Source: a virus
DNA: 64,000 nucleotides
Strand: one strand, 5' to 3'
Virus record (IMG/VR): IMGVR_UViG_3300030098_006179
Span: 64,001-128,000 of that record
Shown: positions 7,084-51,110 of the stretch, piece after piece
How the letters are laid out: the number at the start of each line of letters is the position of its first letter
Numbering within the stretch: position 1 is the first letter of the stretch
Made by a program: the position numbers and the translations under genes
Notes under the pieces: model-generated
The model's input: the letters and a program-made list of their open reading frames with translations, nothing else
Databases searched by the model: none
What the model was told of the DNA's origin: nothing

Positions 7084-8856
7084 GTGAATTTTAACGACGC
7101 AGAATTGTTAACATATACAAGTCAGAATAATTTTTTATCTGATGGAGATTTTAGATATGGATCTACAAAGGTTATATCAATAGATAGTTATATTGATACT
7201 AGATATTCCAATACCGACCAATCAGGGGTAAAAGAATTTCAGCAAGAAATTATGACTCTGATTTCTGGTGCTAATGATTTCGAAAAAATAATCATCAACG
7301 GTCACGATTTTGGCTACGGAAGAATTAAATCAATAAATTATAATGGTTCAAATTCATTTGACTCTAATCAAATTAGACTAGGTAAAAATACTTTTGAAAT
7401 AGAAATATCCGATTCTGGAGATCAAGATTTGCACAATATGGACGGAGATCATTTCGCTGGTCTTAAAAATAAATTTTCCAAACATCACTTATTAGAAGAC
7501 TTTGGCGAAAGCTTTTCTTTTTCAAATTCAGAAGATGGAACCTATTCATACACACATAATGTTAATGCAAAATATTTTTCCGGAGCAGAAGTAACAGACC
7601 CTATTGAAGAAGCTAAAAGTTTGGCTGAAGGAATATTTGAGTTAGATCCAAGCTTCGGCTTTTTAAACTCTCAAAGGTCTGGATTTTATAATGCCGATGG
7701 TAAAAAACGTTTTTCAGAATCATATAATCTAAGAAACAACAGTTGTTCTTTTACTAAAAATTTTACTTGTCACCCCAAATACAATAAAGGAGACACCTTT
7801 TGTTCTGATATAAGTCACGTATTGACTTCGGACGAAAATGGAATAATTTCAGTAACTGAAAGCGCAACAGTAATGGGTCTTGATGATGACGGAGGAGAAG
7901 AATTATATACTTCCGTATTGAATGGATTAGAAAACGAAATAATAAACTCTTACAGTAGGTGTACAGGAGTTTTAAGCGGATATTCTGGATTCTATGGAGG
8001 AGATAATACTGATGGGGCCATTTTAAATGATTTAAATAAAAATTATATTAGCCTACAAAAAAACTTAAATAAAACAACATCTAATTTGTCATACGAGGTT
8101 GTTTATAATAATAACAATAACATATCTGGTAATTTGGGCCAACACTCCTTATCGTTATCTTTAGACACATCTACAGAGGGAATAACTAGTGTTGTTGAAC
8201 AGGGCTCAATTACTTCTTTGTCTCAAAAGGGTAATGTAACTCCCATGACTTTATATAATTCATTTTATATTGATGAGAATTCTCCACATAAATGTGGAAA
8301 ATTTTATAGCGGCACAATAGACAATAATAGAAATGAATATAATTTTTTCCAACAAAAAAGATTTAATTTAATTGATTCTGATATTAGTTATTCCCGAAAA
8401 GGAAATAAGGTTTCTTATTCTAAATTATACACAGATGATCCTTCAGTAATAAACACGAGCAACATCTCATCGTTAAAAATAGATTGTTCTGACGTATTTG
8501 AAATTGAAATTAACAACCAATACTTTATTCCAAATCAACCAGACCAAAAAGTTATACTACAGAAAAAGGGATTAACTACTTTATCTAGCCGAAACGTTAA
8601 CGCGTCTTGCATATATCAAAAACCATCAACTAATTTTTGGACAGATTCAACCTATGCACCAATAGCGCCAGAGAGTAATACTGATTTTTATAACGCTTTA
8701 AAATTTATAAAAAATAAAATGCTTGAAAAAGCCTTTGATGATGAATGGGTATCAATAGATGAGATTAATTCTATGTATGTAAGTGACTTTTCATACAATG
8801 TGTCATCTGATCAAAACCTAAGCGCAACAATGAACATAGTATACGAAAGCAAATAA
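7084..8856 (+). CDS. Putative tail/baseplate structural protein
   Basis: GTG start preceded by AAGG. S/N/D/Y-rich, beta-like composition. Shares the motif EDGxxxxTH-x(n)-IExAK with the next ORF. Confidence 0.5.
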   Translation: MNFNDAELLTYTSQNNFLSDGDFRYGSTKVISIDSYIDTRYSNTDQSGVKEFQQEIMTLISGANDFEKIIINGHDFGYGRIKSINYNGSNSFDSNQIRLGKNTFEIEISDSGDQDLHNMDGDHFAGLKNKFSKHHLLEDFGESFSFSNSEDGTYSYTHNVNAKYFSGAEVTDPIEEAKSLAEGIFELDPSFGFLNSQRSGFYNADGKKRFSESYNLRNNSCSFTKNFTCHPKYNKGDTFCSDISHVLTSDENGIISVTESATVMGLDDDGGEELYTSVLNGLENEIINSYSRCTGVLSGYSGFYGGDNTDGAILNDLNKNYISLQKNLNKTTSNLSYEVVYNNNNNISGNLGQHSLSLSLDTSTEGITSVVEQGSITSLSQKGNVTPMTLYNSFYIDENSPHKCGKFYSGTIDNNRNEYNFFQQKRFNLIDSDISYSRKGNKVSYSKLYTDDPSVINTSNISSLKIDCSDVFEIEINNQYFIPNQPDQKVILQKKGLTTLSSRNVNASCIYQKPSTNFWTDSTYAPIAPESNTDFYNALKFIKNKMLEKAFDDEWVSIDEINSMYVSDFSYNVSSDQNLSATMNIVYESK

Positions 8857-8857
8857 T

Positions 8858-10975
8858 ATGAGTACAACCGTTACATATGACACGTTTAGCTTTCATAAAG
8901 AAGGTTTTAGTACTCCTTATGTTTCTAGAAGCGATCAAATTCTTTCTTATGGAAACAGATGGGGTCAAGGAACATCGTATAATTTAAATGGGCAAATTAC
9001 AGGGTATAGTTTTTCTGACATAATAGAAAAACAAGGAATGTTGATTACTGGATTTCAAAGAGATTTTAAAAGCTTAGATATTACAGAAGACGGTCAATCC
9101 GTTGCGGGTTTTCCGATTTCTAATTGTAAAATAAATAATATATCTTTTAATACAAGTAAATATATACCAGTTATAGATTACGACATTTCTATTGACGCCT
9201 ATGATGAAGGTTTATTTTCCGGATCGTTTGGAGTTACAGAGCCTTCTGATCAGGTTAATATATCTGAGGGTGAAGATGGCGCAATAACACTAACACACGA
9301 TATTTCAGCACGCGGTTTTACAACAGATGGTAAAACGGCAATTGAAAACGCAAAAGATTTTGTTCACTCAAATACAGGATGGAATGAGCAAGTTTTTCCA
9401 AAATTTATAACTTATCAACAGTTTGACAAAACTGTATATGACTCAGATTTTTCTTCTAGTGTTGATAGTTGGGCCCCAACAAATGGTTCGACATCTTTTT
9501 CAACAATATCATCAAAACGATCTTTAAAATTTATAGCGACTGAAGAAATTGGTTCTCATAATGTGTACCAAACTTTTTCTGAAATAGAAGTAGGAAAAGA
9601 ATATAAAATAGAGGCTGAAATTTTTATTGGCAATACAGTGCCTTTGGAATATCAAAATGTAACAATTGTAGAGTTGTCTAACAATTCATCTGACGGAAGC
9701 GATGTCATTGTTGAAGGTGGAACACAAGGACAGTGGGTAAAAGTTGAAAAAGTTTTTATTGCAACAACTCAAAACATATATATTAAAGCAAAAGAATCTT
9801 CGGGTGATTATACTTTTCAAGGAGACTCTACATATGATTGGTTCGCAGTTTCTAACATTCGACTAAGAAGACATTATGGATTTAAGCCACTTTTAACATC
9901 ACAAAACGAAAACATAGATAGATTGAATGGAGTTTATTCCGTTAATGAAACTTATGTTATGTCCAACACGGGAGAACAAAAATTATTTAGCGGATATAAT
10001 ATAGATATAAGTTCTGGCATAGGAGAAGATTTTTTAAATGTAGATTTTTCGGCATCCTACAGAGGAGCATTTGGAGAAGATATTTCTGAAACTAGAAATA
10101 AAATTCCAGAATTAAATTGTCAATATTATTACAACTTGGTAAAAAATATATCAAATATATCAGACTTAAATAGTGGAGCATCAAACTTTTCTGTTTCTGA
10201 AAACTCTGGTTCGAGAATGATTGATTTATCAGTTTCGTTTAATAATAATAATTTATATACTGGATCTAATGCTTATTTTGATTATGAAATATCGGCTAAG
10301 ACAAATGAATTAACATCTAATACAACCTTGTCTATAAACGGAACTATAAAAGCAATAGGACACAAAAAAGACAGGTTTCAAATAGCGCAAAATTTTTTAC
10401 AAAATACTATTTATGCTGAATCAGTCGATTGCAAAAATGAAAATAAATTTGCGTGCTATTTATACAATTTAGCCAATTCTGAATATGTTAGCATGTCAAA
10501 AGGGTATACCTTAAATAAATATCCATTATCTACAAATATTTCAGAAAACGAATCACAAGGAACAATTACATTGTCTGCGCAATTTAATGACAATTATAAT
10601 TATTCAAACGATATAAAAATTTCTAACTGGTCTATAAGCGTTAAACCTCCTCTTAGAAAATATTTTTCAACAATGGATGTTTTGACGTACCCTAAACATA
10701 TTTTTTGGAATTCTCAGGTTTTAGATAGATCAAGTATTAAAGTTAATGCCAGCGCTATTAGTTATAGCTCTATACATAAATCTTACGGATTAACAAGTGT
10801 TGATAATTTTATTGAAAATGTTTATAATGTATATGTGAGCCCTAATTCTAGCATAGCAGAAGAATCGAACGAATTATCTTTTAGCGAAACCTCTTTATCT
10901 TATAATAGAAACAAAAGTTGGAGTTTCCACAACGACACAGAATGGGTAATTCTTCCAGCGCCACCTAAGCCATGA
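8858..10975 (+). CDS. Putative tail/baseplate structural protein with inserted carbohydrate-binding-like domain
   Basis: 705 aa. Internal segment YDSDFSSSVDSW...VGKEYKI...GQWVKV...NIRL resembles CBM4/9-like jelly-roll modules. Confidence 0.5.
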   Translation: MSTTVTYDTFSFHKEGFSTPYVSRSDQILSYGNRWGQGTSYNLNGQITGYSFSDIIEKQGMLITGFQRDFKSLDITEDGQSVAGFPISNCKINNISFNTSKYIPVIDYDISIDAYDEGLFSGSFGVTEPSDQVNISEGEDGAITLTHDISARGFTTDGKTAIENAKDFVHSNTGWNEQVFPKFITYQQFDKTVYDSDFSSSVDSWAPTNGSTSFSTISSKRSLKFIATEEIGSHNVYQTFSEIEVGKEYKIEAEIFIGNTVPLEYQNVTIVELSNNSSDGSDVIVEGGTQGQWVKVEKVFIATTQNIYIKAKESSGDYTFQGDSTYDWFAVSNIRLRRHYGFKPLLTSQNENIDRLNGVYSVNETYVMSNTGEQKLFSGYNIDISSGIGEDFLNVDFSASYRGAFGEDISETRNKIPELNCQYYYNLVKNISNISDLNSGASNFSVSENSGSRMIDLSVSFNNNNLYTGSNAYFDYEISAKTNELTSNTTLSINGTIKAIGHKKDRFQIAQNFLQNTIYAESVDCKNENKFACYLYNLANSEYVSMSKGYTLNKYPLSTNISENESQGTITLSAQFNDNYNYSNDIKISNWSISVKPPLRKYFSTMDVLTYPKHIFWNSQVLDRSSIKVNASAISYSSIHKSYGLTSVDNFIENVYNVYVSPNSSIAEESNELSFSETSLSYNRNKSWSFHNDTEWVILPAPPKP

Positions 10976-13419
10976 ACAGAGAATTTGTAAATACTTATAT
11001 GCAAGAAAAAAATATCCCATCGGGGTATTTAAAGGCTTGGTATAATTTTGAAAGTGGTATAGCCACAGGCTCTGCGGGTTTGATTTACAATCAGGTATAT
11101 ACTACGGGTAATCACTTTTTTGATCCGGCAAATTATGATGGAAATTTAAAATCTGGAGTAATGGCAGGAATTTCTATAGGTAATGACACCGAACTGACTT
11201 CTACCACAGCATACGCTTCAGATTTTAGCTCTGGAAGAGATAGTTGGGGTAGTGGAGTAAGTGTTACTGATCCGGTCACTGGATCAGGCCAAGTTTTAAA
11301 AAAGGGGTGTGTGGGATCGGGGTATCACTTTACAAGAAGATATAGTTTGGGCATGACTATTGGCAAAAAATACAATATCACAGGGAAGGTTTTCATAGAC
11401 CCACTAGCTTCTAACATACAAAAAGTTTTAATATATCACATGGACGGTTGGTATGGTCTTTTTGTAGATAAACCAAGTACAGCACAATGGGTGGAATTTT
11501 CTTTAGATTTTGAAGCAAAGGGAGATTATATGACCCTTTACGCTCATAATGGTTCTGGTATTAGTTTTACAGCAGGATCAAATGATGATTTTTACATAAA
11601 AGATTTTGTAATCAAAGAAACAACTTCTCCTTTTTCTGGAAATTTTGATCACAATGAAATGGTTCAAATTTCAGACGATGTAAATTATAATAATTGGACT
11701 GTTTTTTTAGACGTAAATATTACAAACCAACAAAATTTAACTGGACAAAGTAAAATTCTTTTATCTTCTATGAAAAATTCAGGTGATACATCTGGATTTT
11801 ATGTAGGATTAAATGGGTACAATAAACCTTTTGTAAGGTATTGTTCAACGGATGGAGAACAGTATATTCACACGTTATCCAAAGAAGCCTCTAATAGAGA
11901 TTTAATAAGCGTATCTTTTCATAGCGAAGGCAAAAATCTAACAATAAATAAACATTCCCCAAAAGAAGATTATTATGAATCTTTCGTTACTAAAGAACTA
12001 ACACCTTCTTTAACTTGGACTTTGGGAGGATTCAAAGAATATCTTAATGATAGCGCGCCGGGAAATCATATTAGACAATTTGATGGAACAATGAATCACT
12101 TTATGTTATTTAGTCCGTCGTTGAAAGGAAGAAAAGAGCAAGAGTTCGCAGACTTTTTATTCATAAGCGATTACGAAAAATCACAAGTAAAACAAAGACA
12201 AATATCTTCAACCGTTAATTCTACTGGGGCTTCCATAACTCAAGGAGTAGTAGGTCAGGGAGTTGTTGGTTATGAAAAAACATTGAGTCATACAATTGAT
12301 GGAGTCGAAGTTTATAAAAATGCAGAAGTAATAGGAGACATTTATGGAGACGTAATAACATATACCACTACTCCAGAAACTATTTATTCTTATGAAAGCT
12401 ATGTTAGTAATGAGATAAAAACTTTTGACAATACAATATCTCAAAACTTTTTTAATAAAAAAATACAATTTATAAAAAATAAAGATAATTTTACTTTACC
12501 AGCGAGTGGGTCTTTATATGTTGATTCAACAAGACACTTAATTTCAAAAACAAGTTCAAGCAAATATGAAGTTAGAGCTTCGGTAGATGCTAATAAAAAT
12601 TTAAACAAAATTGCAAATTGGAATGGTTTATCTGGATCATTTGTATTAAAGTCTGGAATCTCTGGAAAATATCTTAATCTCTACAGAAATGGTTTATTAC
12701 AAAGGTCTGGAACTTTGGAAGAAGTTAATTCTACAAATACAGAAGGCACAGGATTTGCGGATTATACATTGCTTGATTTTAAGTATATTTATTCAAACGA
12801 TAGATATGATAAAAGCGACTTTTTAACTTATGAAGAATGCACGTTACCTAATATAGTTGGCGGATATGAAGATGGAGAAGATGCATTTTATATGCATAAT
12901 GGAAATCAAGGAAGTTCTTTTTTAATAAACGCGGCAACGTATCTTGACGGAAGGGATATGTTTATAGGCGGAACAAAGTTAATTTATGGAATAGACTATG
13001 TATACTTTAGTAGTACTATAGCTGCGGTATACACGGCTGGATTAAATAAGGGGGTATTGTCGTGGGTTCAATCTTTTGATACAAACTCAAACTATAACTC
13101 TGTCGGAAATTCAGAAAATGGAGATTTTAAATATCACATAACAACTGATAAAAATTTAATGGATGAAATAGTTTGGGTAAGTGGAGTAAGACAACAGAGA
13201 GATGTAGATTATATAAAAACTGCAAACTTTAGCGTTCTAAATAATGCTAGAATAAATAAATACGGAGAAGGCGGAGAAAATTACCAAGGAACATGGGGTG
13301 GCAGTCTTGCTGGTAGCGTACCAAATGGAATTAGTGACACAACTTACAATCCTTTTGATAAATATCAAGAAAATGACAGTATAATATATAATGGAAAAAC
13401 AGGATTTTTTAATTCATGA
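10972..13419 (+). CDS. LamG/concanavalin-A-like domain virion protein with CBM-like insert
   Basis: LamG-like elements LKAWYNFE, WTVFLDVN, GFYVGLNG, WTLGG, FDGTMNHFMLF. Repeated phage structural motifs LYRNGLLQ / FIGGTKLIYGIDY / WVSGVRQQRDVDY. Confidence 0.6.
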   Translation: MNREFVNTYMQEKNIPSGYLKAWYNFESGIATGSAGLIYNQVYTTGNHFFDPANYDGNLKSGVMAGISIGNDTELTSTTAYASDFSSGRDSWGSGVSVTDPVTGSGQVLKKGCVGSGYHFTRRYSLGMTIGKKYNITGKVFIDPLASNIQKVLIYHMDGWYGLFVDKPSTAQWVEFSLDFEAKGDYMTLYAHNGSGISFTAGSNDDFYIKDFVIKETTSPFSGNFDHNEMVQISDDVNYNNWTVFLDVNITNQQNLTGQSKILLSSMKNSGDTSGFYVGLNGYNKPFVRYCSTDGEQYIHTLSKEASNRDLISVSFHSEGKNLTINKHSPKEDYYESFVTKELTPSLTWTLGGFKEYLNDSAPGNHIRQFDGTMNHFMLFSPSLKGRKEQEFADFLFISDYEKSQVKQRQISSTVNSTGASITQGVVGQGVVGYEKTLSHTIDGVEVYKNAEVIGDIYGDVITYTTTPETIYSYESYVSNEIKTFDNTISQNFFNKKIQFIKNKDNFTLPASGSLYVDSTRHLISKTSSSKYEVRASVDANKNLNKIANWNGLSGSFVLKSGISGKYLNLYRNGLLQRSGTLEEVNSTNTEGTGFADYTLLDFKYIYSNDRYDKSDFLTYEECTLPNIVGGYEDGEDAFYMHNGNQGSSFLINAATYLDGRDMFIGGTKLIYGIDYVYFSSTIAAVYTAGLNKGVLSWVQSFDTNSNYNSVGNSENGDFKYHITTDKNLMDEIVWVSGVRQQRDVDYIKTANFSVLNNARINKYGEGGENYQGTWGGSLAGSVPNGISDTTYNPFDKYQENDSIIYNGKTGFFNS

Positions 13420-15872
13420 GCCATAAATTTAACAATATAGAAAAAGTATATTTTGACGACGGAGAAGCCGGAAAAATAGGCGATGCTTTTATATTTAATA
13501 TGAGCTTTAGTCAATCATATAGCTCTGGACCTTCATCGCTGTCTATACAAGCCATATCTGAAGACGGTAATTATGCGTCTGTTCCTGCTCCTAATTTTGA
13601 TAATGTTTATGTTGTAAAAATTGGAAATAAAATAGTATTTAGAGGATACATTCTTTCAAAAGAGATATCAACGAGCGTTCAAGATAAAAGTTTATCCATT
13701 ACAATGGTTGACAAGTCTTTAATTTTAGATCAATATGGAATAGGGTTGGTTAACAGGCATGGTAATGTAGCAACTCAAAAAACAAGTATTTCAAATATAA
13801 AAGTTCGTAGACAAGACCCTCTTTCTGATGGACAATCAACAGAAACGACGGTGTCTGTTGAAAGAGATATCGCCAATACTGAAGTAACGGGAGTTAAATT
13901 AATTAATAATGTTTTTATAATAGGAAGAGAAAAATATACTTCTAATAAGTGCGAAATACCAGATGTTGAATATTTTGGTTCTCATTTTTCCGCAGCGATA
14001 AATGCTTTTTCTTCAATAAGTGGTATATCTTTTTCGAGCCTTCCACCGATTTTATCTGGAAGAAATTATACTGGAACAATTAGAGAGGTATTAAATTCTT
14101 TATGTTCAGACGCGGGAATGTCTTTTTATTATGATTCATCAAATGATAAAATAGAAATATTTTCTCTCAACTCTAAGAGTATTGATGATTCTATAATAGA
14201 AGAATTAAAAAATGACGAAAATATCACAATAAATAGTTTTAATGAATCTGAATCTTTGGAAGGAACTTTCGCAAACTTTTTTTCAGTAAGAGAAATGAGA
14301 CCCGGAAGAGGAGGAGTTTCAGAACAAAATTTAGAATGTGCTACATCATTTATTAATTCTCCAGCCTTTAGGGGGCCATCTGGATTACCAAATATTTTTT
14401 ATATAGATAGGGCAGCAATACTTGGAAAAGTTTCTCCATCCTTAAGAAGTCGTTATTGTTATGAAGCAGCACAATATGAAAGAATTGGTTGGACAAATGT
14501 ATCTCATCTATGGGATCAAAGCTCTACAATAGACCCCGATTTAATCAGCAACACCCCCGGAGGAACAAGTGTAGATAGATTTTCTAATTTTATTGGTTTA
14601 GCACAAGAAGAAGTAAGACAATTTATTAGAAATAATCCACAATTACAAAATGGATTTAACCTTTATGCAGTAAATTTAAATGACAGATTAAAAGAAGATT
14701 ACGAAGTTCAAGAATTATCAAGTTTAGGGGCGTGGGGTCCATATTATGAAGCCATATTTGACCCAATGTCAGTCATGATAAACACTCCAGAAGCTACTTC
14801 TTGTAATGTAAAAAACATAACTCAAGAACCTCAACCTCAATGGTACGAAGTGGAGGGATATGGTTTTTGGGGATTTAAAGGAGAAGAATCTTGGGAATTT
14901 AATAACTTAGATATGGATAAGTTTTCGGCTGATACTAGTATAGCGCTAATGGATATAACGGCTCCAGTGCAGGAAGCAGTCAACGGAGGTTTCTATGGTA
15001 ACCAGATTAGTTCACAAACGGTTTTAGCTTTTGTTCCAAGAGGTAATTACGTTGGCTCAATCTCAAATGAAGAGTGGAAACCCTCTAAGTGGTCGCAAGA
15101 TTTTTTGGGCGATTATTTTAATTCTGGATACGACGACGAAAACTGTGTTCCGTATATGACAGTAAGAATAGCAGGAAAAACAAAAACGAGCCCGTGTGGA
15201 GCAACACCTTGCACCGACGCCACAATTGAGCGCGCGTTTGACGGTATTACAACATCCCAATGTTCAACTGAACGATTACCAACTGGAGAAGTTTGCCAAA
15301 GAAAAAGATATGGAATTTCAGTTAACTTGCAAGGAATAGGAACTTTAATAGTCGGAGGGCCTTGGATATCTAATACTGGATATAGAAGCAATATAATTAC
15401 GCAATATGTAAGAAATAAATCAACAGAGATTTCTCGATCAATAAACATTATTAATGGAGCACATGGATTGCACACTAATAATTTTGCAAAATTAAATATA
15501 AATGACATTGACGCTACTGCGGAAATTTTCGACCCCAAATCAAGTAACTCAAATTACATTACCCCCCAAACAATTAACACAACTTTGGGAAGTACTTTTG
15601 ATAGTGCTTCGGCAATATTTAGTTCATTTACCGAGGGTTCTTCTGTAAATGGTTTGCCAAGATCTATTAGCTTGCAAATAGACGGAATACCATCAAATTT
15701 AGATAAATCCTTAAATTCTAAAGATATAAAAGATTGGAATATTAATTTTGGACCAGAAGGTATATCTATGAATTTAAATTATGCAGATGCACCATCTACA
15801 CCTCCATCTATGGACTATTTACAATCAAGATTACATAATCAATTTCACTATACAACAATACTTGGACAATGA
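13416..15872 (+). CDS. Putative baseplate hub / tail-tip protein
   Basis: N-terminal pattern typical of hub proteins (VFRGYILSKEI..., YTGTIREVLNSLCSDAGMSFYYD). Cys-rich C-terminal half. Confidence 0.45.
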   Translation: MSHKFNNIEKVYFDDGEAGKIGDAFIFNMSFSQSYSSGPSSLSIQAISEDGNYASVPAPNFDNVYVVKIGNKIVFRGYILSKEISTSVQDKSLSITMVDKSLILDQYGIGLVNRHGNVATQKTSISNIKVRRQDPLSDGQSTETTVSVERDIANTEVTGVKLINNVFIIGREKYTSNKCEIPDVEYFGSHFSAAINAFSSISGISFSSLPPILSGRNYTGTIREVLNSLCSDAGMSFYYDSSNDKIEIFSLNSKSIDDSIIEELKNDENITINSFNESESLEGTFANFFSVREMRPGRGGVSEQNLECATSFINSPAFRGPSGLPNIFYIDRAAILGKVSPSLRSRYCYEAAQYERIGWTNVSHLWDQSSTIDPDLISNTPGGTSVDRFSNFIGLAQEEVRQFIRNNPQLQNGFNLYAVNLNDRLKEDYEVQELSSLGAWGPYYEAIFDPMSVMINTPEATSCNVKNITQEPQPQWYEVEGYGFWGFKGEESWEFNNLDMDKFSADTSIALMDITAPVQEAVNGGFYGNQISSQTVLAFVPRGNYVGSISNEEWKPSKWSQDFLGDYFNSGYDDENCVPYMTVRIAGKTKTSPCGATPCTDATIERAFDGITTSQCSTERLPTGEVCQRKRYGISVNLQGIGTLIVGGPWISNTGYRSNIITQYVRNKSTEISRSINIINGAHGLHTNNFAKLNINDIDATAEIFDPKSSNSNYITPQTINTTLGSTFDSASAIFSSFTEGSSVNGLPRSISLQIDGIPSNLDKSLNSKDIKDWNINFGPEGISMNLNYADAPSTPPSMDYLQSRLHNQFHYTTILGQ

Positions 15873-17302
15873 TATTTTCTGGACACAATTTTATTTCTTT
15901 GCCTGAAGTTGATACTTTAAGTTTTAACGTTCCAATATCCTTAAACTCTATTTATGGCTCAGGCTCTTTTGGATTTTCTGGCTCTGGATCAAATGGAGAA
16001 GGCCAAATAATCAAATTTGAATTTATCTCAGGAGAAGTAAGAGATTTTAATGGTAATTATGTATACTCTTATTTTCCCAACAGAGAGGTTGTTGTTTCTG
16101 GAGATATATTTTCTAGGGGCCATCACTATTACATAAACCAAGATCCTGTTTCTTTATCTGGAACTCAAGAATATTTTAGATTTAAAAGATTTTTTTATGA
16201 AACTTCTAGTGAAGTAAGTATAGAATCTGAAGCGTCAATTTCTATTAAGAAGCCATCTATAACATTTTCTTCACCGATGTATATTGATATATCCGGAACA
16301 TATACGGGATCTTTTGAAAAAAGCGTAGAACATAAAGTTTATTCTTTAGAATTAGATGGTTTAAATCATCAAATGTTTGATATTAGTTCTACAGATTTGA
16401 ATCCCGGAAATAAAACGGGTTCTTACATTTTTGAACCAAGCGCAAACACTACTTTATATGCAACCAAAAATTACGAATTAACTTTATTGTTAGAAACAGA
16501 TTTTGGAGAAGTAGATGAACAGATCAAATTTACTGGATATAATCCTTCTGATGGACAAGTTGTTACAAAAAATTTAACAACTATTGCAAATCCAATAAAC
16601 ACATATAGATCTTATCCAAAAACTAAAAGGTCAAATACTTATAGTTTATTATACAGTGTGATGGAAAGCGGTTTAGAACAAGATAAGCCAATTGGAGTAG
16701 AGTTAAGTTATTACGATGGAGGAACAGGGCACAGAAGTGGATATAAAGGTGATATAAATATTATTGATAGCGGTAGTGGGTTTTTTACTGGAGATGCTTG
16801 GTTGTACGTTACAGGAGCAGGAGGGTCTGGATTTATTGGAAATATTTTATCCGAATGGACTTATCCATCTCCGGGGCCAGAAAGGGGAACTGGCAATATA
16901 AATGGAATTGAAGTTTCAATGTTTGGCCAAGATTATAAGGGTCCGGAAGAAATGTTGGCATTTATTTCAGGCAATCAAGGTTCTGGAAACGCTCAAATAA
17001 AACCTATTCCTTATGAGTACAATAAGCCATTTTTTGAAACTTGGGATTTGAGTACTGGCATTACTCAAAGTGATATATATTCATTTAGTGGAAATTCATT
17101 GTCTGGTGCACCATTAACAGATACTTCTGTTTATTCTGATTCTAACTTTAGTGGAGGACATGAGTTATTACCCTCAACAACTACGAGTTTATATATACAA
17201 GTAGATTTTGAACCTCTTTATGATTCAGATCCAGTAATTGCAAAATTAGAAGTAACGGGGCAAGGATTTTCTTTAGTAGAATATATAACAGGAATAAAAT
17301 AA
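15869..17302 (+). CDS. Structural protein strongly enriched in Ser-Gly/Thr-Gly
   Basis: 477 aa in the structural operon, with about 28 SG/TG dipeptides counted by eye. Confidence 0.5.
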   Translation: MIFSGHNFISLPEVDTLSFNVPISLNSIYGSGSFGFSGSGSNGEGQIIKFEFISGEVRDFNGNYVYSYFPNREVVVSGDIFSRGHHYYINQDPVSLSGTQEYFRFKRFFYETSSEVSIESEASISIKKPSITFSSPMYIDISGTYTGSFEKSVEHKVYSLELDGLNHQMFDISSTDLNPGNKTGSYIFEPSANTTLYATKNYELTLLLETDFGEVDEQIKFTGYNPSDGQVVTKNLTTIANPINTYRSYPKTKRSNTYSLLYSVMESGLEQDKPIGVELSYYDGGTGHRSGYKGDINIIDSGSGFFTGDAWLYVTGAGGSGFIGNILSEWTYPSPGPERGTGNINGIEVSMFGQDYKGPEEMLAFISGNQGSGNAQIKPIPYEYNKPFFETWDLSTGITQSDIYSFSGNSLSGAPLTDTSVYSDSNFSGGHELLPSTTTSLYIQVDFEPLYDSDPVIAKLEVTGQGFSLVEYITGIK

Positions 17303-17303
17303 T

Positions 17304-18053
17304 ATGGCTTATACAGTAACAGGTTTACCACGTTTTCAATTAACGTTAATTGGAAATACTTTTTTTGAAGGTTTTCCAGTAAATGCCGGACAAAGAATTG
17401 GATCATCAGTTAGAATAAATCTTCCTAGCAATTTACAAATTACAAACAGTGACACTCAAGAATGGTGTCCATCCACGTTTTCAATTGGCGATTTTGTTTC
17501 AGCAATAGGTCCAGATATGAATGGAGAGTATGTTTTAATAGATGGAGCCAAAACTGTAGAGTTAAAAACTTTAAGTTGTCAAAAATACAAAACAGAAACA
17601 CAAAGTAGCACTGGTCCTGCTGGAGAAAAAGGAGAAAAAGGCAATAGCGGAACAGGTTCCGCTGGAGAAAAAGGAGACGTAGGAGAAAAAGGAGACGTAG
17701 GAGAAAAAGGGGCGGTTGGTTCCCAAGGAAGCAAAGGTCAACCCGGAGAAAAAGGAGAAGGGGGAGATGAAGGTCCAAAAGGCGGAGTCGGATCAACTGG
17801 CGGCACTGGACCAAAAGGAGAAATCGGAAGTGATGGATCTCAAGGAGATCAGGGCGATACAGGAGCTACCGGAAACACCGGCAGTAAAGGAGAACCCGGA
17901 GAAAAAGGATCAAAAGGTGAGGGTCTTGACTGGAACGACACACAGCAAAGTATATTGATTGGCGGAACAAAATTTGGACCAAGATTAATTGGAGTTTGTC
18001 AAAACGGAACTTATAAATATGTTTATGTTTTTGCCTCAGATCCAACATCATAA
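17304..18053 (+). CDS. Collagen-like (Gly-X-Y) fibre protein
   Basis: GEKGEKG/GPKGE repeats at ~17613-17924. Confidence 0.85.
   Translation: MAYTVTGLPRFQLTLIGNTFFEGFPVNAGQRIGSSVRINLPSNLQITNSDTQEWCPSTFSIGDFVSAIGPDMNGEYVLIDGAKTVELKTLSCQKYKTETQSSTGPAGEKGEKGNSGTGSAGEKGDVGEKGDVGEKGAVGSQGSKGQPGEKGEGGDEGPKGGVGSTGGTGPKGEIGSDGSQGDQGDTGATGNTGSKGEPGEKGSKGEGLDWNDTQQSILIGGTKFGPRLIGVCQNGTYKYVYVFASDPTS
17613..17924 (+). repeat. Collagen Gly-X-Y repeat region
   Basis: GPAGEKGEKG...GEKGSKGEG. Includes the DNA repeat GGAGAAAAAGGAGACGTA x2. Confidence 0.9.
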
Positions 18054-18055
18054 AC

Positions 18056-20314
18056 ATGGCTCACACACTTTCAAATAATAGAATTTACAGAATGAGGATC
18101 GAGGAACATTACGATCCTCAAAGGCCAAGTTGGGCAGAAACTTCAACTGTATTTTTTTGGGATCATCCACAAACCAAGGCTGGATATTTAACAAGACACT
18201 TTTTTTCAAAAAAAATTAATGTTAATGAAACCATTCCAGCTTGGACATACGACACTATACAAAGTTATGGATATGATTCTTCAGCTTGGTCCATGTCTAA
18301 TCCTCCACCAATAACCGGACCCGTTCCAAACACTCAAGGAGTTTATTTTGGACAAAGAAATTTATTTGGTAAGGGTCTTATTGAAGGTTATAACATCGCA
18401 GATATTGATGTATTAAGATTTTGGCCTGTCGGAAGACCCGGTGCGCAAGGAGGTTTAGAAGCTTTTGCGATAGGGGGCGATGGTGATGATGATACTATTT
18501 TTGCAGATGCTGGATCAATAATTACAAACGGACCTTTGTATACAGACTCTTCTAGTTGGACTCTTATATACAAAGAGGCTTGGTTATATAGCAGAAAAAA
18601 TAGAGCAAAAACACTTCCCTCTTATACTGATTATTACGATTCAAAAAATTACATTTATCCGCCATTACCAGAAATAGGATACTGGAATCAACCCAGAGAT
18701 ATTGGTATCACATCTTGGACTTGGACTACTTATAGCGCATCTAACATGTATGTAGAATTTACTGATAGTTGGTATCAAAATAGATCAAGTTCAAATGCGC
18801 CCGGTACATTTACAAATCCACTTATATATACAAACACACACACATCTGCACCATACGCTGATGATTGTTCGTACACTCACGAAATTACTTCAAGACAAAA
18901 AGGAAATTCAGAATTAACCTCTGCTCCAGCTACAAATTCAACAGGAATTAATTTAACTAGCGAAACTGGAATAGTTTGGGATCCATTATTTAATGTTGAA
19001 GGAGTAGAAACTTCTATTTATATAAATTATTGCGATGATGGAACCGATTTAGACAATGATCAAAAAATGCTTTTAGCAGATCAAATTTGGGGAGGGAATT
19101 ATTACGAAGGAGGATTTTATATTGAAAACAGAGGATTGGCATATCATTTAGCAAACGCTGTAAAATGGAACGAGTTATCTTCCATGACTCAGCCCTTTAT
19201 AGGAAACTTAACAGATCCAACCCTTTATGGTTCTTATGGAAGAGATGAGGATGGAAATTATGGCCCTATACCTCCATTAATGAATTTTAATGGAGGAGGA
19301 GAACAAACTTGGCAAAGTGATCCGAGTTGGAAAGATACCGAACCGTATGCTTCGTATCTCGATTGGGATACAGAATATAACAATTTAGAACAATATTATT
19401 CAAACACTTCAGAATATATAGTGTGTTCTTTTGTGGATTATCCAAATAATAGCTGGGTTAAAGTTTATAAACCAGCAGAGTTATTGGTTGATAATGCGCA
19501 AAATGAAAGAATTTGCCCTGAATATAATAAGGGAGATATTATCTTAGCCACGCAAAAAGAAAGCCCAGATATCTGGGAGTTTATAGATTTAAATTCAGAA
19601 GGAAGACAGAAAATAAATTATAGTACACGAGGGACGCTAATACCATATCATGATTATTTTCCAAATCCTTATATACCTTTTGAAACTAGCTTTTTAATTC
19701 CTTCTGGACAACAAATTCCACCTTATAGTTTTAATTGTTCTAAATATACATATAGTAATGAAATACATAGAGACAGTGAGGGAACACAAGGAGCAAAAGG
19801 AGATCAGGGTGATAGCGCTGCAGGTTTCGAAGGTTCTAAAGGAGAGAAAGGTAGTTCTGGAGAAAAAGGGGGCGAGGGCGAACCTTTAAATGGAGACCCC
19901 GGAGACCAAGGAGAGAAAGGAGAGAAAGGTGGAGAAGGGCCAGCGGGAGAAACGGGATTAACTGGAGGTACAGGCCCGAAGGGAGAAGTCGGAAACAAGG
20001 GTCAACAAGGCTTTGATGGAGCTAAAGGAGAAAAAGGAGGTGTTGGTTCTAAAGGCGAACCTACGCCGGGAGACGCTGGCGAATCAATAATAACCGGAAG
20101 TAGTTGGGGAACTGTAAATGGAGACCCATCTAATTATACAACCAGCACCAATGGAACTATGGAAATTCAGCTTGGAGACGCGGCACACACGGCAGGAAAC
20201 GAAAGTACAACAATTCAATTTTCAAGAAAACATTTTGGAGTTTGTGTTGAAAATACTAGCGATCAACCCACATACAAGGGAATTTATATTTACGCTTCGG
20301 ATTTTATAGATTAA
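18056..20314 (+). CDS. Collagen-like fibre protein with large aromatic-rich N-terminal domain
   Basis: Gly-X-Y region at ~19781-20086. C-terminal third is paralogous to the preceding ORF. Confidence 0.8.
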   Translation: MAHTLSNNRIYRMRIEEHYDPQRPSWAETSTVFFWDHPQTKAGYLTRHFFSKKINVNETIPAWTYDTIQSYGYDSSAWSMSNPPPITGPVPNTQGVYFGQRNLFGKGLIEGYNIADIDVLRFWPVGRPGAQGGLEAFAIGGDGDDDTIFADAGSIITNGPLYTDSSSWTLIYKEAWLYSRKNRAKTLPSYTDYYDSKNYIYPPLPEIGYWNQPRDIGITSWTWTTYSASNMYVEFTDSWYQNRSSSNAPGTFTNPLIYTNTHTSAPYADDCSYTHEITSRQKGNSELTSAPATNSTGINLTSETGIVWDPLFNVEGVETSIYINYCDDGTDLDNDQKMLLADQIWGGNYYEGGFYIENRGLAYHLANAVKWNELSSMTQPFIGNLTDPTLYGSYGRDEDGNYGPIPPLMNFNGGGEQTWQSDPSWKDTEPYASYLDWDTEYNNLEQYYSNTSEYIVCSFVDYPNNSWVKVYKPAELLVDNAQNERICPEYNKGDIILATQKESPDIWEFIDLNSEGRQKINYSTRGTLIPYHDYFPNPYIPFETSFLIPSGQQIPPYSFNCSKYTYSNEIHRDSEGTQGAKGDQGDSAAGFEGSKGEKGSSGEKGGEGEPLNGDPGDQGEKGEKGGEGPAGETGLTGGTGPKGEVGNKGQQGFDGAKGEKGGVGSKGEPTPGDAGESIITGSSWGTVNGDPSNYTTSTNGTMEIQLGDAAHTAGNESTTIQFSRKHFGVCVENTSDQPTYKGIYIYASDFID
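19781..20086 (+). repeat. Collagen Gly-X-Y repeat region with short interruptions
   Basis: GTQGAKGDQG...GEPTPGDAGES. Confidence 0.9.
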
Positions 20315-20322
20315 TATATATT

Positions 20323-21186
20323 ATGGCCCAACATTCATACATAATATCTGACCCAAGCGAAGGAGGCACTTACGACGCTCTTTTAACGAGTTGTACTACA
20401 TGCATGGCCAATGACACTTGTCCAGATTGTTCGTTGGACGCAACAATAACAATAGATGGCGTAGATCCAGATAGCGCTCCAACACCGGGATGGGCCTCTC
20501 AAGACATAACACAGGCAGCAACAAGAACTGCTAAAACTGATAGGTGGCCATATCAAATAATAACAAAAACACAATCTATAAGCTGCAATTCGAATTGTGT
20601 ATATTTAATAAGAATACAATACGCATTACAAACTTCTAGCGCAAGAAGGTCATTTTTTCAATGCGGACTTTCTGACATATGGCTAGTAGAAAGATGGAAT
20701 AATGCAGGAGTAATTCAGGAATTATTTAATCCAGCCTCATCTTTAGTTTTTGATTATGATAACTCTCAATTAGCTGACGATTATTCTGATATTAATTCAA
20801 AGAAAGCTGCTGGTTTCGGTGGATCTGCGTCAACTTATTTTAATCCTTATGGATTAAGAGAGGCTTATGATGATAATTTAAATGACTTTGAAAGACACTG
20901 TGGAACACTTATGTTTTTTGCTAGGGGCAACGATACAATTAAATTTAGATTAGCTCAACATACAAATATCAATAGTAATATAGATATAAATCCAGATTCA
21001 TTTAATGATTTCGGTGGAGTCACAGAAGCTCCCACTTCAGACTATTCTGACTCTCATGGAAATTATACTGCTCAAGGAGTTTTTAAAGTAAAGGCTTATA
21101 TAAGGCCAATCCCCGGAGATTTAAAATTGTCTAAAAAAACTTCAAACAATTTACAAACAGTAAAATACCACCCTAAGCTTTATTAA
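20323..21186 (+). CDS. Hypothetical virion-associated protein, Cys-rich N-terminus
   Basis: Last gene of the + operon. Contains CTTC-x5-CPDC. Confidence 0.5.
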   Translation: MAQHSYIISDPSEGGTYDALLTSCTTCMANDTCPDCSLDATITIDGVDPDSAPTPGWASQDITQAATRTAKTDRWPYQIITKTQSISCNSNCVYLIRIQYALQTSSARRSFFQCGLSDIWLVERWNNAGVIQELFNPASSLVFDYDNSQLADDYSDINSKKAAGFGGSASTYFNPYGLREAYDDNLNDFERHCGTLMFFARGNDTIKFRLAQHTNINSNIDINPDSFNDFGGVTEAPTSDYSDSHGNYTAQGVFKVKAYIRPIPGDLKLSKKTSNNLQTVKYHPKLY

Positions 21187-21871
21187 CCTTTTTCAATCTT
21201 TCAACAAGCTCAAACATTTTAAATTTAGGCAAATCAGAAACTGAAGTTAGTTTTTCTGCATCTTCATATTTTTCTTTAATGAGTTTCTTTTTGATTTGCT
21301 CAAAAGTAACACCCTTGTCTTTCATAACGTTTTCTAAAACATTATAAGGATCTGACTTGTTTTCTGATGAGGTCTCTGGAACAAATTTTGTATCTCCAAG
21401 TTCTTCCGCGCTAACAATGTTAATTTTAAGAAAGTTTCTAACGCAGCGCACAAAAGCTCTATTCTCAGCAATTGGTCCAAGATATAGTTTTGCAAAGCTT
21501 TTTGTGTTTTCGTGAGACGCGTCACCAATAGATGAAAAAGTTACCTCTTCTCCTTCTGTTTCATAATTTGGTTTCCAAGTAATACTACAAGTAGCTATCA
21601 CATAATTTGGTGAAGGAGATACCACATCGTACTTAACGTCTGTATACCCTCTAATTTGAGCTAGATCTTTGATCCCCCCAAGAAGAATAATTAATTGGTT
21701 ATCTTTAAGTTTGGTTACGTCAGTTTCGCTTGTACGGTCTTTGTTTGGAACAAGGTGTTCTGTTTTAATCATCTTGCGCCAATCAATTAGGCCATCTTCG
21801 TTGAAAACGTAATCTATACCTTTAATAAGACCATCTGTGTCACGCGTAATTTTATTCTTTTTGGAACTCAT
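21173..21871 (-). CDS. Putative Rad52/RecT-like single-strand annealing protein
   Basis: SIGDA...IAENRAFVRCVR resembles the (M)AETRAxxRAxR helix of Rad52-fold annealing proteins. Sits in the replication/recombination operon. Confidence 0.4.
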   Translation of the reverse strand: MSSKKNKITRDTDGLIKGIDYVFNEDGLIDWRKMIKTEHLVPNKDRTSETDVTKLKDNQLIILLGGIKDLAQIRGYTDVKYDVVSPSPNYVIATCSITWKPNYETEGEEVTFSSIGDASHENTKSFAKLYLGPIAENRAFVRCVRNFLKINIVSAEELGDTKFVPETSSENKSDPYNVLENVMKDKGVTFEQIKKKLIKEKYEDAEKLTSVSDLPKFKMFELVERLKKVNKA

Positions 21872-21877
21872 AATTTA

Positions 21878-21906
21878 ATTAAAACACTAATTTGAATTAG
21901 TGTCAA
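21878..21906 (-). promoter_or_regulatory. sigma70-type promoter TTGACA-17-TTTAAT (extended -10), 6 nt before ATG, with a 9-bp inverted repeat in the spacer
   Basis: Minus strand TTGACActaattcaaattagtgtTTTAATtaaattATG. Palindrome ACACTAATT-2-AATTAGTGT at 21884-21903. Confidence 0.65.
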
Positions 21907-38185: not shown

Positions 38186-38190
38186 GGTAA

Positions 38191-38219
38191 AGTATAATAT
38201 ATATAATTAGGTATGTCAA
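38191..38219 (-). promoter_or_regulatory. Near-consensus sigma70 promoter TTGACA-17-TATACT, 5 nt before the GTG of fcl; overlaps a divergent + strand TATAAT
   Basis: Minus strand TTGACAtacctaattatatatatTATACTttaccGTG. Confidence 0.75.
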
Positions 38220-38941: not shown

Positions 38942-38942
38942 C

Positions 38943-44301: not shown

Positions 44302-44304
44302 GTC

Positions 44305-46223: not shown

Positions 46224-46224
46224 T

Positions 46225-51108: not shown

Positions 51109-51110
51109 AT

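What the first reader, a model, noticed from the sequence alone, without database searches (positions are those of the whole stretch)
7084..17302. Ser-Gly/Thr-Gly enrichment in virion proteins: candidate O-glycosylation sequon for the phage's own glycan island
Seen: the 477-aa protein at 15869 has about 28 SG/TG dipeptides (FSG, ISG, YTG, VTG, LSG...), roughly three times my rough compositional expectation. 10972-13419 has about 25, while the similar-length 13416 protein has about 9. They are dispersed rather than in linker runs, and often follow a hydrophobic/aromatic residue. Established: Ser-Gly is the attachment site of eukaryotic glycosaminoglycans, whose synthesis uses GT31 and GT47 enzymes, and both families appear to be encoded here. 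Inference: a glycan-shielded virion system with a simple [hydrophobic]-S/T-G sequon.
Basis: partly seen in the sequence, partly recalled or inferred. Interest (0 to 1): 0.78.

Follow-up and report, generated by a model that had tools for sequence, protein, structure and literature searches.

The report
Ser/Thr-Gly tag on phage tail proteins
Several unrelated outer tail proteins of an uncultured marine phage place serine or threonine in front of glycine far more often than chance or their folds require, which may mark where the phage attaches its own sugars, though no sugar has been seen.

Summary
The counts are right: 28 S/T-G in the 477-aa protein against 10.9 expected (z 6.2), 25 against 14.5 in the 815-aa protein, and 9 in the 818-aa neighbour. 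The excess is specific to S/T and directional. It recurs in 112 relatives (3631 against 1345) and in six mutually non-homologous tail/fibre proteins of this 162-kb phage, while its other 140 ORFs sit at expectation (358 against 359.9).

The folds do not require it. T4 tail proteins are flat. Of 79 relatives of one enriched fibre-tip domain, none reaches z 3, and this phage's copy scores 5.8. A weakly enriched sub-clade keeps the glycines but has K/Q/V/I/A before them.

There is no GT14, GT47 is only sub-threshold, there are no acidic clusters, and Thr is as enriched as Ser.

Best reading (about 0.42): a lineage-specific hydroxyl tag, most likely an O-glycosylation acceptor served by soluble phage transferases. 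A purely structural signature is close behind (about 0.33). The positive side rests on one phage lineage, and no chemistry exists.

Earlier notes of this scan describe other short motif "tags" on other phages' outer virion proteins. I did not test them.

The parts
7084..8856 (+). Tail-tip/baseplate module, position 1 (590 aa); not enriched
   Evidence: 10 S/T-G against 7.9 expected. Orthologues in G002 and in marine loci have z from -2.3 to 2.1. No Pfam or PHROG hit.
8858..10975 (+). Module position 2 (705 aa); not enriched
   Evidence: 11 against 9.2. Orthologues found in G002 and G003.
10972..13419 (+). Module position 3 (815 aa); S/T-G enriched
   Evidence: 25 against 14.5, z 3.15. Orthologues are enriched in 8 of 8 marine loci where present (z 6.95-11.1) and in G002 and G003 (z 5.9 and 10.5). 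Alignment A5 shows conserved S/T-G columns and a 'VTGxxLNYTGVTGTGVTGY' tract in the orthologues.
13416..15872 (+). Module position 4 (818 aa), baseplate-hub-like; not enriched
   Evidence: 9 against 11.4. PHROG 196 'baseplate hub', E 1.2e-5. Orthologues have z from -2.4 to -0.3 in 8 loci.
15869..17302 (+). Module position 5 (477 aa): ConA-like jelly-roll (1-127) followed by beta-sandwich domains, including about two 'GSGY'-type repeat units (about 286-385); the most enriched protein in the window
   Evidence: 28 against 10.9, z 6.2. 126 relatives. AF2 model with pLDDT 86.9, all-beta. Residues 1-127 match sialidase CBM, galectin and PL7 jelly-rolls at Z 10-13.5, e.g. 5mqs_A Z 13.5, rmsd 2.2, 125 aligned.
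17304..20314 (+). Two collagen-like tail-fibre proteins (249 and 752 aa); not S/T-G enriched; G-x-K-rich triplets
   Evidence: PF01391 (E 1.8e-13 and 4.4e-6) and tail-fibre PHROGs. z -0.13 and -1.64. Lys at the Y position in 9 of 23 and 7 of 12 triplets.
21173..25423 (-). Lineage-conserved cluster beside the tail module: 232-aa, 407-aa, 628-aa GT-B-like (with DUF4214) and 170-aa proteins; the candidate initiating transferase is the 628-aa protein
   Evidence: The 628-aa protein hits PHROG 2170 glycosyltransferase at E 9.5e-18 and has weak Glycos_transf_1 and DUF4214 hits. It is 51-54% identical in G002 and G003, the 232-aa protein is 67% identical, and both keep the same position. It belongs to a virus-only family. 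No TM-like segments.
36165..38185 (-). GDP-mannose 4,6-dehydratase and GDP-fucose synthase; the only sugar-nucleotide pathway shared with G002 at high identity
   Evidence: PF16363 E 1e-108 and PF01370 E 2e-68. 67% and 66% identical to G002.
38213..38941 (+). Fringe-like GT31, next to the GDP-fucose genes
   Evidence: PF02434 E 3.2e-12.
36165..63660 (.). Glycan island of about 27 kb (sugar-nucleotide enzymes, GT2, GT4-like, GT6, GT11, LicD, cytidylyltransferases, methyltransferases); all proteins predicted soluble
   Evidence: No TM-like segment in any of the 36 proteins examined. No Wzx, Wzy, WecA or WbaP family among the Pfam hits.

Best explanation
S/T-G is a lineage-specific tag written onto the outer tail and fibre proteins of this marine phage lineage. 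A hydroxyl residue sits immediately before a glycine at strand ends, turns and surface loops. The most likely reader is a soluble, phage-encoded O-glycosyltransferase acting on the proteins in the cytoplasm before or during tail assembly.

SHOWN: the excess is real, specific to S/T, directional and acts at protein level. It occurs in six non-homologous proteins while the rest of the proteome is flat. The folds do not need it. The lineage carries a large, entirely soluble glycan island, plus a conserved virus-specific GT-B-like gene beside the tail module.

INFERRED: the tag is read by an enzyme; the enzyme is a glycosyltransferase (candidate: the 628-aa GT-B-like protein); the first sugar could be fucose, because GDP-fucose synthesis is the conserved pathway; the variable island enzymes then extend the glycan.

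A minority of sites are probably structural in any case. FGFSG, ISGD and positions 367 and 396 are kept even in the weakly enriched sub-clade.
For: (a) Specificity. SG is 2.59x and TG 2.85x expectation, every other x-G is 0.40-0.83x (including the turn-formers NG at 0.49x and DG at 0.73x), and GS and GT are 1.05x and 0.90x. S/T codons from all three codon families are used before G.

(b) Six enriched proteins in G000 (z 3.3-8.3) give no cross-hits by HMM or BLASTP. The other 140 ORFs total 358 against 359.9.

(c) Not generic. 19 T4 virion proteins have z from -1.6 to 2.1, and 7 S-RIM2 baseplate proteins have z 1.0-2.4.

(d) Not required by the fold, first line of evidence. Residues 324-674 of the 774-aa protein have 21 against 7.2 (z 5.8). 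Homologous fibres score z 0.97 and 1.21 in Alfacinha1 and WH11-B. Among 79 viral-contig relatives, domain z has mean 0.70 and maximum 2.96, none reaches 3, and the pooled count is 462 against 373. There is no GC effect (rho 0.016, n = 70). At aligned sites the homologs carry A-G, N-G, V-G, P-G or no glycine, and the G000 copy has extra S/T-G-rich loop insertions.

(e) Not required by the fold, second line of evidence. A weak sub-clade of the 477-aa family keeps the Gly but has K/Q/A at position 54, V/I/A at position 286 and E/N at position 4.

(f) GT content. None of the 21 non-enriched relatives on contigs of at least 25 kb has a GT2 or GT1 hit over the cut-off. G000, G002 and G003 have enriched tail proteins together with the conserved GT-B-like gene, and G000 and G002 also have glycan islands.

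(g) The island has no membrane proteins or lipid-carrier enzymes. This fits stepwise glycosylation of a soluble acceptor.

(h) Precedent for such a motif. The EOGT consensus is C5-x-x-G-(Y/F/L)-(T/S)-G on folded domains (PMC5388531, passages). Aah and TibC recognise structure rather than sequence on beta-rich proteins in the cytoplasm (PMC3835316, passages).
Against: No modification has been observed, and everything here is sequence statistics.

The positive side is a single phage lineage. G000, G002, G003 and the marine loci are syntenic, so the link with glycan islands has an effective n of 1.

In the well-aligned ConA-like domain the whole excess sits in 10 recurrent columns; outside them the count is 44 against 43. 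Individual sites also hold S or T specifically: position 37 has S 44 and T 1, and position 396 has T 42 and S 2. Both patterns also fit a structural role.

13 of 28 sites lie inside predicted strands.

The tandem (SGxx)n tracts of the 1850-aa protein account for all of its excess (the rest has z -0.14) and match a gp5-type beta-helix PHROG. That protein's enrichment looks structural.

No enzyme family known to read S/T-G was found. GT61 is absent from four genomes and GT14 is absent. The O-FucT search was uninformative.

The collagen-like fibres, module positions 1, 2 and 4 and the remaining ORFs are not enriched, so this is not a whole-virion shield.

The relatives on short contigs could not be checked for GT content, and 15 of the 21 larger records are under 90% complete.
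Confidence: 0.42

Rival explanations
1. A purely structural signature. S/T-G marks strand ends, bulges and tight turns of the beta-sandwich, beta-helix and repeat domains that this lineage uses for its outer tail proteins. The Gly allows the turn or packs against the core, and the S/T hydroxyl caps the backbone. Nothing is attached.
For: The sites are locked to positions: 10 columns explain the whole excess in the ConA-like domain, and each site fixes S or T. About 8 of the 13 in-strand sites lie at strand termini. The repeat unit of about 35-40 residues seen in longer relatives has three to four S/T-G positions in its consensus and also occurs in cyanophage gp7-like virion proteins. The (SGxx)n tracts match a gp5 beta-helix PHROG. 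Module positions 3 and 5 are enriched in every locus while their neighbours never are, so the property belongs to the protein families.
Against: The same folds manage without it. None of 79 fibre-tip relatives is enriched at domain level. The weak sub-clade has K/Q/V/I/A before the conserved Gly. T4 proteins are flat. Six non-homologous proteins in one genome share the bias while 140 others do not. Asn and Asp, the usual alternatives in capping turns, are not enriched before Gly.
Confidence: 0.33
2. Another lineage-specific pressure on the same dipeptide. Candidates are a different hydroxyl modification (phosphorylation, acylation, or phospho-ribitol or phosphocholine transfer by the LicD/cytidylyltransferase genes), recognition by a shared fibre-assembly chaperone, or replacement of chemically labile Asn-Gly and Asp-Gly turns in long-lived marine particles.
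For: The pressure is lineage-specific and hydroxyl-specific. The island encodes LicD, three cytidylyltransferases and several methyltransferases. A small gene like an L-shaped tail-fibre assembly protein precedes two enriched fibres (PHROG 1084 and 3304). NG is 0.49x expectation.
Against: All non-S/T x-G dipeptides are depleted to a similar degree, and DG (0.73x) is above their average, so there is no specific avoidance of labile pairs. A-G and V-G are also replaced, which chemical stability cannot explain. No kinase was seen in the Pfam hits apart from GHMP sugar kinases.
Confidence: 0.15
3. A chance or composition artefact, including low-complexity linkers.
For: Within the single 477-aa protein, SG (z 4.57) is no more extreme than EV (z 4.76) among 400 dipeptides.
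Against: The excess is replicated in 112 relatives (3631 against 1345), in syntenic loci and in G002 and G003. It is directional, since GS and GT are about 1.0x. The sites are dispersed, with only 2 gaps of 2 residues or fewer among 27. Mixed codons are used.
Confidence: 0.02

Closest known systems
Mycobacteriophage virion O-glycosylation by phage-encoded glycosyltransferases (Freeman et al. 2023). I saw it only as cited in passages of PMC12619734; the paper itself is not held.
   Same: A phage genome carries its own glycosyltransferases, some next to structural genes. The proposed target is the virion's own proteins, modified in the cytoplasm.
   Different: According to that passage the glycans sit at the C-termini of the capsid and tail-tube subunits. 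Here the candidate sites are dispersed dipeptides inside folded beta domains of baseplate and fibre proteins. The host and phage lineage are unrelated, and no chemistry exists.
EOGT (GT61) O-GlcNAc sequon C5-x-x-G-(Y/F/L)-(T/S)-G-x2-3-C6 on EGF repeats (PMC5388531, passages)
   Same: A (hydrophobic)-(T/S)-G motif is read on a folded, beta-rich domain. Ser and Thr are both accepted, and the hydrophobic -1 residue is preferred but not essential.
   Different: No GT61 is present in G000-G003. There is no Cys-framed EGF context: the printed 477-aa sequence contains no cysteine. EOGT works in the ER lumen.
Glycosaminoglycan priming at Ser-Gly
   Same: A Ser-Gly dipeptide at the attachment site.
   Different: It needs an acidic cluster, and here acidic residues are depleted near the sites. 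It uses Ser only, and here Thr is equally enriched. It is primed by a GT14 xylosyltransferase, which was not found. GT47 is only sub-threshold.
Heptosylation of self-associating autotransporters (AIDA-I and TibA by Aah and TibC; PMC3835316, passages)
   Same: Cytoplasmic O-glycosylation of many Ser/Thr on a beta-rich repetitive surface protein. [quoted passage not shown]
   Different: A different enzyme family (not searched for here), a bacterial rather than viral substrate, and no S/T-G rule reported in the passages read.
Concanavalin-A-like lectin/glucanase jelly-roll domains (galectins, sialidase CBMs, PL7 lyases)
   Same: Residues 1-127 of the 477-aa protein superpose at Z 10-13.5, rmsd 2.1-3.4, over 107-127 residues.
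   Different: Sequence identity is 3-15%. No sugar-binding residues were checked. The S/T-G signature is not a feature I know of this fold (recalled, not tested).

Membership tests
Glycosaminoglycan-type Ser-Gly attachment system | Acceptor is Ser, not Thr | tested here: not met
   TG (2.85x) is at least as enriched as SG (2.59x) across 112 relatives. The 477-aa protein has 10 TG among its 28 sites.
Glycosaminoglycan-type Ser-Gly attachment system | Acidic cluster next to the Ser-Gly (PMC13405426, passages) | tested here: not met
   Mean number of D/E in a 10-residue window around the sites is 0.82 against 1.17 expected (477 aa) and 0.48 against 1.09 (815 aa).
Glycosaminoglycan-type Ser-Gly attachment system | Priming xylosyltransferase (GT14, Pfam Branch PF02485) | tested here: not met
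   No match at E <= 0.01 in the 96%-complete genome. The control rang in 2 of 14 genomes.
Glycosaminoglycan-type Ser-Gly attachment system | GT47 exostosin polymerase | tested here: inconclusive
   One hit of 16.5 bits (cut-off 33.4, E 3e-4) inside the 811-aa protein at window 41549-41821. The same region has a borderline RXYLT1_C hit.
EOGT-type (Y/F/L)-(T/S)-G O-GlcNAc sequon | Hydrophobic or aromatic residue at -1 | tested here: inconclusive
   16 of 28 sites in the 477-aa protein (p 0.01) but 7 of 25 in the 815-aa protein (p 0.78). Family-wide, I and F are 1.9x and V 1.6x expectation at -1.
EOGT-type (Y/F/L)-(T/S)-G O-GlcNAc sequon | GT61 transferase (PF04577) | tested here: not met
   No match in G000, G001, G002 or G003. 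The control rang in 2 of 14 genomes.
EOGT-type (Y/F/L)-(T/S)-G O-GlcNAc sequon | Cys-framed EGF repeat context | tested here: not met
   The 477-aa sequence as printed has no cysteine. The model is beta-sandwich, not EGF.
Phage virion O-glycosylation (mycobacteriophage type) | Phage-encoded glycosyltransferase(s) adjacent to structural genes | tested here: met
   The 628-aa GT-B-like gene (PHROG 2170, E 9.5e-18) lies 2.7 kb from the last tail gene and keeps this position in G002 and G003.
Phage virion O-glycosylation (mycobacteriophage type) | Glycans on C-terminal tails of capsid and tail-tube subunits | not tested
   The capsid and tube genes of G000 were not identified with confidence. No head-module ORF is S/T-G enriched.
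Phage virion O-glycosylation (mycobacteriophage type) | Chemical detection of glycans on virion proteins | not testable with these tools
   The phage is uncultured, and no proteomic data were reachable.
Concanavalin-A-like lectin/glucanase fold (N-terminal domain of the 477-aa protein) | Two-sheet jelly-roll superposable on family members | tested here: met
   Z 13.5 (5mqs_A, rmsd 2.2, 125 aligned). Galectins give Z 10-12 and PL7 lyases Z 10-12. The model's pLDDT is 89-97 over residues 1-130.
Protein O-fucosylation (POFUT, PF10250) extended by Fringe | O-FucT family transferase | tested here: inconclusive
   No match in four genomes, but the control rang in none of the 14 genomes, so the search is uninformative. 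A Fringe-like GT31 and GDP-fucose synthesis genes are present.

The most novel reading that the evidence does not exclude
S/T-G is a true sequon. The conserved, virus-specific 628-aa GT-B-like enzyme beside the tail module recognises a hydroxyl residue followed by glycine at exposed strand ends of folded beta domains, and O-fucosylates it. GDP-fucose synthesis is the conserved sugar pathway of the lineage. The variable island enzymes then build strain-specific caps: the Fringe-like GT31 acts on fucose, then GT11 and GT6 add a blood-group-like end. The result would be a phage whose host-recognition apparatus carries a programmable glycan coat written by a two-residue code.
Probability: 0.12. 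Interest if true: 0.88.

Novelty: new variant of a known kind. Interest (0 to 1): 0.62.

Why it matters
Self-glycosylation of phage particles is so far documented only for actinobacteriophages. The large 'LPS-like' sugar gene islands of marine phages have no established target. If a two-residue tag marks the acceptor sites, three things follow. The targets of these islands could be read straight from sequence. Tail-fibre glycans would become a candidate layer of host-range and defence-evasion variation in the ocean. And a compact tag-plus-enzyme pair for site-directed O-glycosylation of folded proteins would be available for testing.

If the tag proves purely structural, it is still a strong and unusual family signature: about 54% of all glycines are preceded by S/T. 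That makes it useful for recognising the outer tail proteins of this uncultured lineage.

Tried and rejected
- **Generic fibre property:** rejected. T4 and S-RIM2 proteins are flat.
- **DNA-level or codon-pair cause:** rejected. All S/T codon families are used before G. The rise of TCT to 0.37 reflects the tandem tracts.
- **GC-driven effect:** rejected. rho is 0.016 over 70 relatives.
- **Low-complexity linkers:** rejected for the window proteins. It is true only for the (SGxx)n tracts of the 1850-aa protein outside the window.
- **Common ancestry of the six enriched proteins:** no cross-hits.
- **Drifting 'shield' density:** not seen in the ConA-like domain (44 against 43 outside 10 columns). 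A residual 1.6x excess in the poorly aligned middle region may be alignment noise.
- **Searches that found nothing:**
  - The 477-aa protein against cultured phages and against PDB sequences by profile.
  - The 628-aa protein against PDB sequences and NCBIfam.
  - Alignment A1 in viral contigs and alignment A7 in viral contigs.
  - Earlier notes of this scan, searched by sequence.
- **Alignments too diverse for locus fishing:**, replaced by a smaller alignment.
- **Full-length fold searches:** Foldseek against PDB and BFVD gave only low-TM multi-domain matches.
- **Solvent exposure of the sites:** could not be computed because model coordinates are not delivered.
- **Within-family contrast:** it is still unknown whether the weakly enriched sub-clade lacks the GT genes, because their contigs could not be reached.


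Full report
**What the window is.** The window is bases 64001-128000 of a 162,379-base IMG/VR phage record, about 96% complete by CheckV and with about 33% GC. The stated range holds five co-directional genes of 590, 705, 815, 818 and 477 aa. They are followed by two collagen-like tail-fibre genes. Only the 818-aa protein has a family hit (PHROG 196 'baseplate hub', E 1.2e-5), so calling the five proteins virion parts rests on position and synteny. Downstream, in order, lie a conserved GT-like cluster, a DnaE-type replication block and a sugar island of about 27 kb. No cultured phage is close; the DnaE protein is at most 32% identical to any.

**Observation.** The counts are exact:

| Protein | Window position | Observed S/T-G | Expected | z |
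|---|---|---|---|---|
| 477 aa | 15869-17302 | 28 (18 SG, 10 TG) | 10.9 | 6.2 |
| 815 aa | 10972-13419 | 25 (17 SG, 8 TG) | 14.5 | 3.15 |
| 818 aa | 13416-15872 | 9 | 11.4 | -0.84 |
| 590 aa | 7084-8856 | 10 | 7.9 | 0.89 |
| 705 aa | 8858-10975 | 11 | 9.2 | 0.67 |

For the 477-aa protein, none of 2000 shuffles reached 28. On one protein alone the signal would not stand out among 400 dipeptides, because EV scores z 4.76 against 4.57 for SG. Replication settles it:

- An exhaustive search found 126 relatives.
- The 112 relatives of at least 150 aa have a pooled 3631 S/T-G against 1345 expected, with mean z 6.65.
- SG is 2.59x and TG 2.85x expectation. Every other x-G is depleted to 0.40-0.83x. 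The reverse dipeptides GS and GT are 1.05x and 0.90x.
- About 54% of all glycines in the family therefore follow S or T.
- Codons of all S/T families are used, so selection acts on the protein.
- The hydrophobic -1 preference holds in the 477-aa protein (16 of 28, p 0.01) but not in the 815-aa protein (7 of 25).

**Anatomy of the 477-aa protein.**

- With a 56-sequence alignment, AlphaFold gave an all-beta model with pLDDT 86.9 and pTM 0.53.
- Residues 1-127 form a concanavalin-A-like jelly-roll. The best match is 5mqs_A at Z 13.5, rmsd 2.2, 125 aligned; galectins and PL7 lyases give Z 10-12.
- The rest is further beta-sandwich domains, for which full-length Foldseek gave only low-TM multi-domain matches.
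- Residues of about 286-385 hold about two copies of a repeat unit of about 35-40 residues, roughly phi-[ST]-G-phi-x-phi ... G-[ST]-G-Y ... [ST]-G-G-G-G-[ST]-G-A. Longer relatives multiply this unit, and it also occurs in cyanophage gp7-like virion proteins.
- Of the 28 sites, 13 have both residues in a strand, mostly at strand ends, and 10 lie in coil.

**Distribution in the genome and the lineage.**

- Of 146 ORFs of at least 100 aa in the genome, six are outliers with z 3.3-8.3. Two are the window proteins. The other four lie outside the window: a 450-aa and a 774-aa fibre protein at G000 47131-50809, and a 396-aa and an 1850-aa protein at G000 129218-135963.
- The other 140 ORFs total 358 against 359.9.
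- The six give no cross-hits by profile or BLASTP.
- In the 1850-aa protein the excess lies entirely in four tandem (SGxx)n tracts that match a gp5-type beta-helix PHROG. Its remainder has z -0.14. That case looks structural.
- In marine metagenome loci the five-gene module keeps its order:
  - Position 3 is enriched in 8 of 8 loci (z 6.95-11.1).
  - Position 5 is enriched in 9 of 10 loci (z 10.3-13.6). The exception is L034, a weak partial match with z 1.8.
  - Positions 1, 2 and 4 range from z -2.4 to 2.1.
- Two further viral records, G002 (GC 43%) and G003 (GC 39%), are syntenic and have enriched tail proteins with z 5.8-10.5.

**Is it the fold?** Several results say no.

- T4's 19 tail, baseplate, fibre and head proteins have z from -1.6 to 2.1. 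Seven S-RIM2 baseplate proteins have z 1.0-2.4.
- The C-terminal half of the 774-aa protein is homologous (25-28% identity) to tail fibres of a P2-like Acidovorax phage and a T7-like cyanopodovirus. Neither has an annotated glycosyltransferase. Those fibres score z 0.97 and 1.21, while the same region here has 21 against 7.2 (z 5.8).
- At the aligned sites the homologs have A-G, N-G, V-G, P-G or no glycine. This phage's copy has extra S/T-G-rich loop insertions, at similar S+T and G content.
- Of 230 viral-contig relatives of this domain, the best 80 were kept, giving 79 loci.
  - At domain level none reaches z 3 (mean 0.70, maximum 2.96, pooled 462 against 373).
  - At ORF level 1 of 79 reaches z 3.
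  - Nine loci gave short or interrupted ORFs in my extraction and were dropped before the GC test.
  - The GC test shows no dependence (rho 0.016, n = 70).
- Within the 477-aa family itself, a weakly enriched sub-clade (six members, 12-16 sites each) keeps the conserved glycines but precedes them with K/Q/A (position 54), V/I/A (position 286) or E/N (position 4). It retains S/T-G mainly at positions 37, 77, 367 and 396.
- A few sites are therefore probably structural. Most S/T residues before Gly are a clade-specific addition.

**Evidence that points the other way.**

- In the ConA-like domain the excess is fully explained by 10 recurrent columns, with 44 against 43 outside them.
- Sites fix S or T individually.
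- All positive cases belong to one lineage.

**Does it track sugar genes?**

- The 21 non-enriched fibre-tip relatives on contigs of at least 25 kb (6 of them at least 90% complete) have no GT2 and no GT1 hit over the cut-off. Only 3 have a single epimerase.
- The enriched lineage carries many glycosyltransferases. Most island GTs differ between G000 and G002.
- The shared glycan-related genes are the 628-aa GT-B-like protein (51-54% identical, better conserved than the tail proteins), its 232-aa neighbour (67%), its 170-aa neighbour, and the GDP-fucose pair (66-67%).
- The 628-aa protein belongs to a virus-only family.
- None of the 36 island or adjacent proteins has a TM-like segment, and no flippase, polymerase or lipid-carrier transferase family appears. 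This fits stepwise glycosylation of a soluble acceptor.
- The association is real but has one lineage on the positive side.

The glycosaminoglycan analogy fails four tests:

- Thr is as enriched as Ser.
- Acidic residues are depleted near the sites. An acidic cluster is required for chondroitin priming (PMC13405426, passages).
- No GT14 is found.
- GT47 is only a 16.5-bit hit.

A closer formal analogue is the EOGT sequon C5-x-x-G-(Y/F/L)-(T/S)-G (PMC5388531, passages). However, no GT61 exists in four lineage genomes, and the protein has no cysteine. The O-FucT search was uninformative because its control rang nowhere.

- **Most likely (about 0.42):** a lineage-specific hydroxyl tag on outer tail proteins, read by a soluble phage transferase.
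- **Close rival (about 0.33):** a structural signature with nothing attached.
- **Other pressures (about 0.15):** other modifications or selective pressures on the same dipeptide.

What is known about phage self-glycosylation I saw only as a passage citing Freeman et al. 2023 (PMC12619734). Earlier notes of this scan report different short motifs on outer virion proteins of other GT-rich phages. I did not test them and do not count them as support.

Noticed in passing
G000:C1:16741-18894 (outside the window), together with window 17304-20314: A 717-aa fusion of GT25 (the collagen galactosyltransferase family, E 6e-25) with a PLOD glycosyltransferase domain (PF25342, E 1.3e-65). The same phage has two collagen-like tail fibres whose triplets are rich in G-x-K (Lys at Y in 9 of 23 and 7 of 12 triplets). 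This looks like a collagen-type hydroxylysine glycosylation system for the fibres, as I recall being described for Mimivirus. No 2OG-FeII_Oxy_3 hydroxylase was found in G000, though G002 has one.
   Followed up: partly
G000:C1:130411-135963 (just past the window's end): An 1850-aa protein with four tandem (S-G-[ST]-x)n tracts (aa 187-206, 371-458, 473-504, 641-736) that match a gp5-type beta-helix PHROG. A glycosyltransferase-like gene (PHROG 2644) and an FkbM methyltransferase follow directly.
   Followed up: partly
window 21173-25423: A cluster conserved in position and sequence across the lineage: 232-aa (67% identical), 407-aa, 628-aa GT-B-like with a CxxC...CxxC insertion and DUF4214, and 170-aa proteins. 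Apart from the GT-like protein, none has a family hit.
   Followed up: partly
window 41138-43573, 48971-49393, 51111-52601, 61256-61690: The island combines a LicD-family transferase, several cytidylyltransferases and an RXYLT1_C/exostosin-like domain fused to a methyltransferase. From recall, these are the parts used for ribitol-phosphate glycans in teichoic acids and in dystroglycan.
   Followed up: no
window 57709-59252 and 36165-38185: Adjacent GT6 and GT11 genes together with GDP-fucose synthesis. The Pfam hits were seen again here.
   Followed up: partly
window 1-2220: The first ORF of the window is the C-terminal 739 aa of a 2902-aa protein (G000 57512-66220). It is followed by a 1598-aa protein (2257-7053). 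Neither has a family hit, and neither is S/T-G enriched.
   Followed up: no
L017:17365-18633 and other places in G002: The related phage G002 carries an IS605 OrfB/TnpB (Cas12f-like) gene, two SET-domain proteins, an arginine-tRNA-protein-transferase-like gene, a sulfotransferase with an APS kinase, and a 3274-aa collagen-like fibre next to a GT2 gene.
   Followed up: no
window 28656-29039: A small cupin-domain protein sits between the RNase T-like exonuclease and the PHP-domain gene of the DnaE replication block.
   Followed up: no
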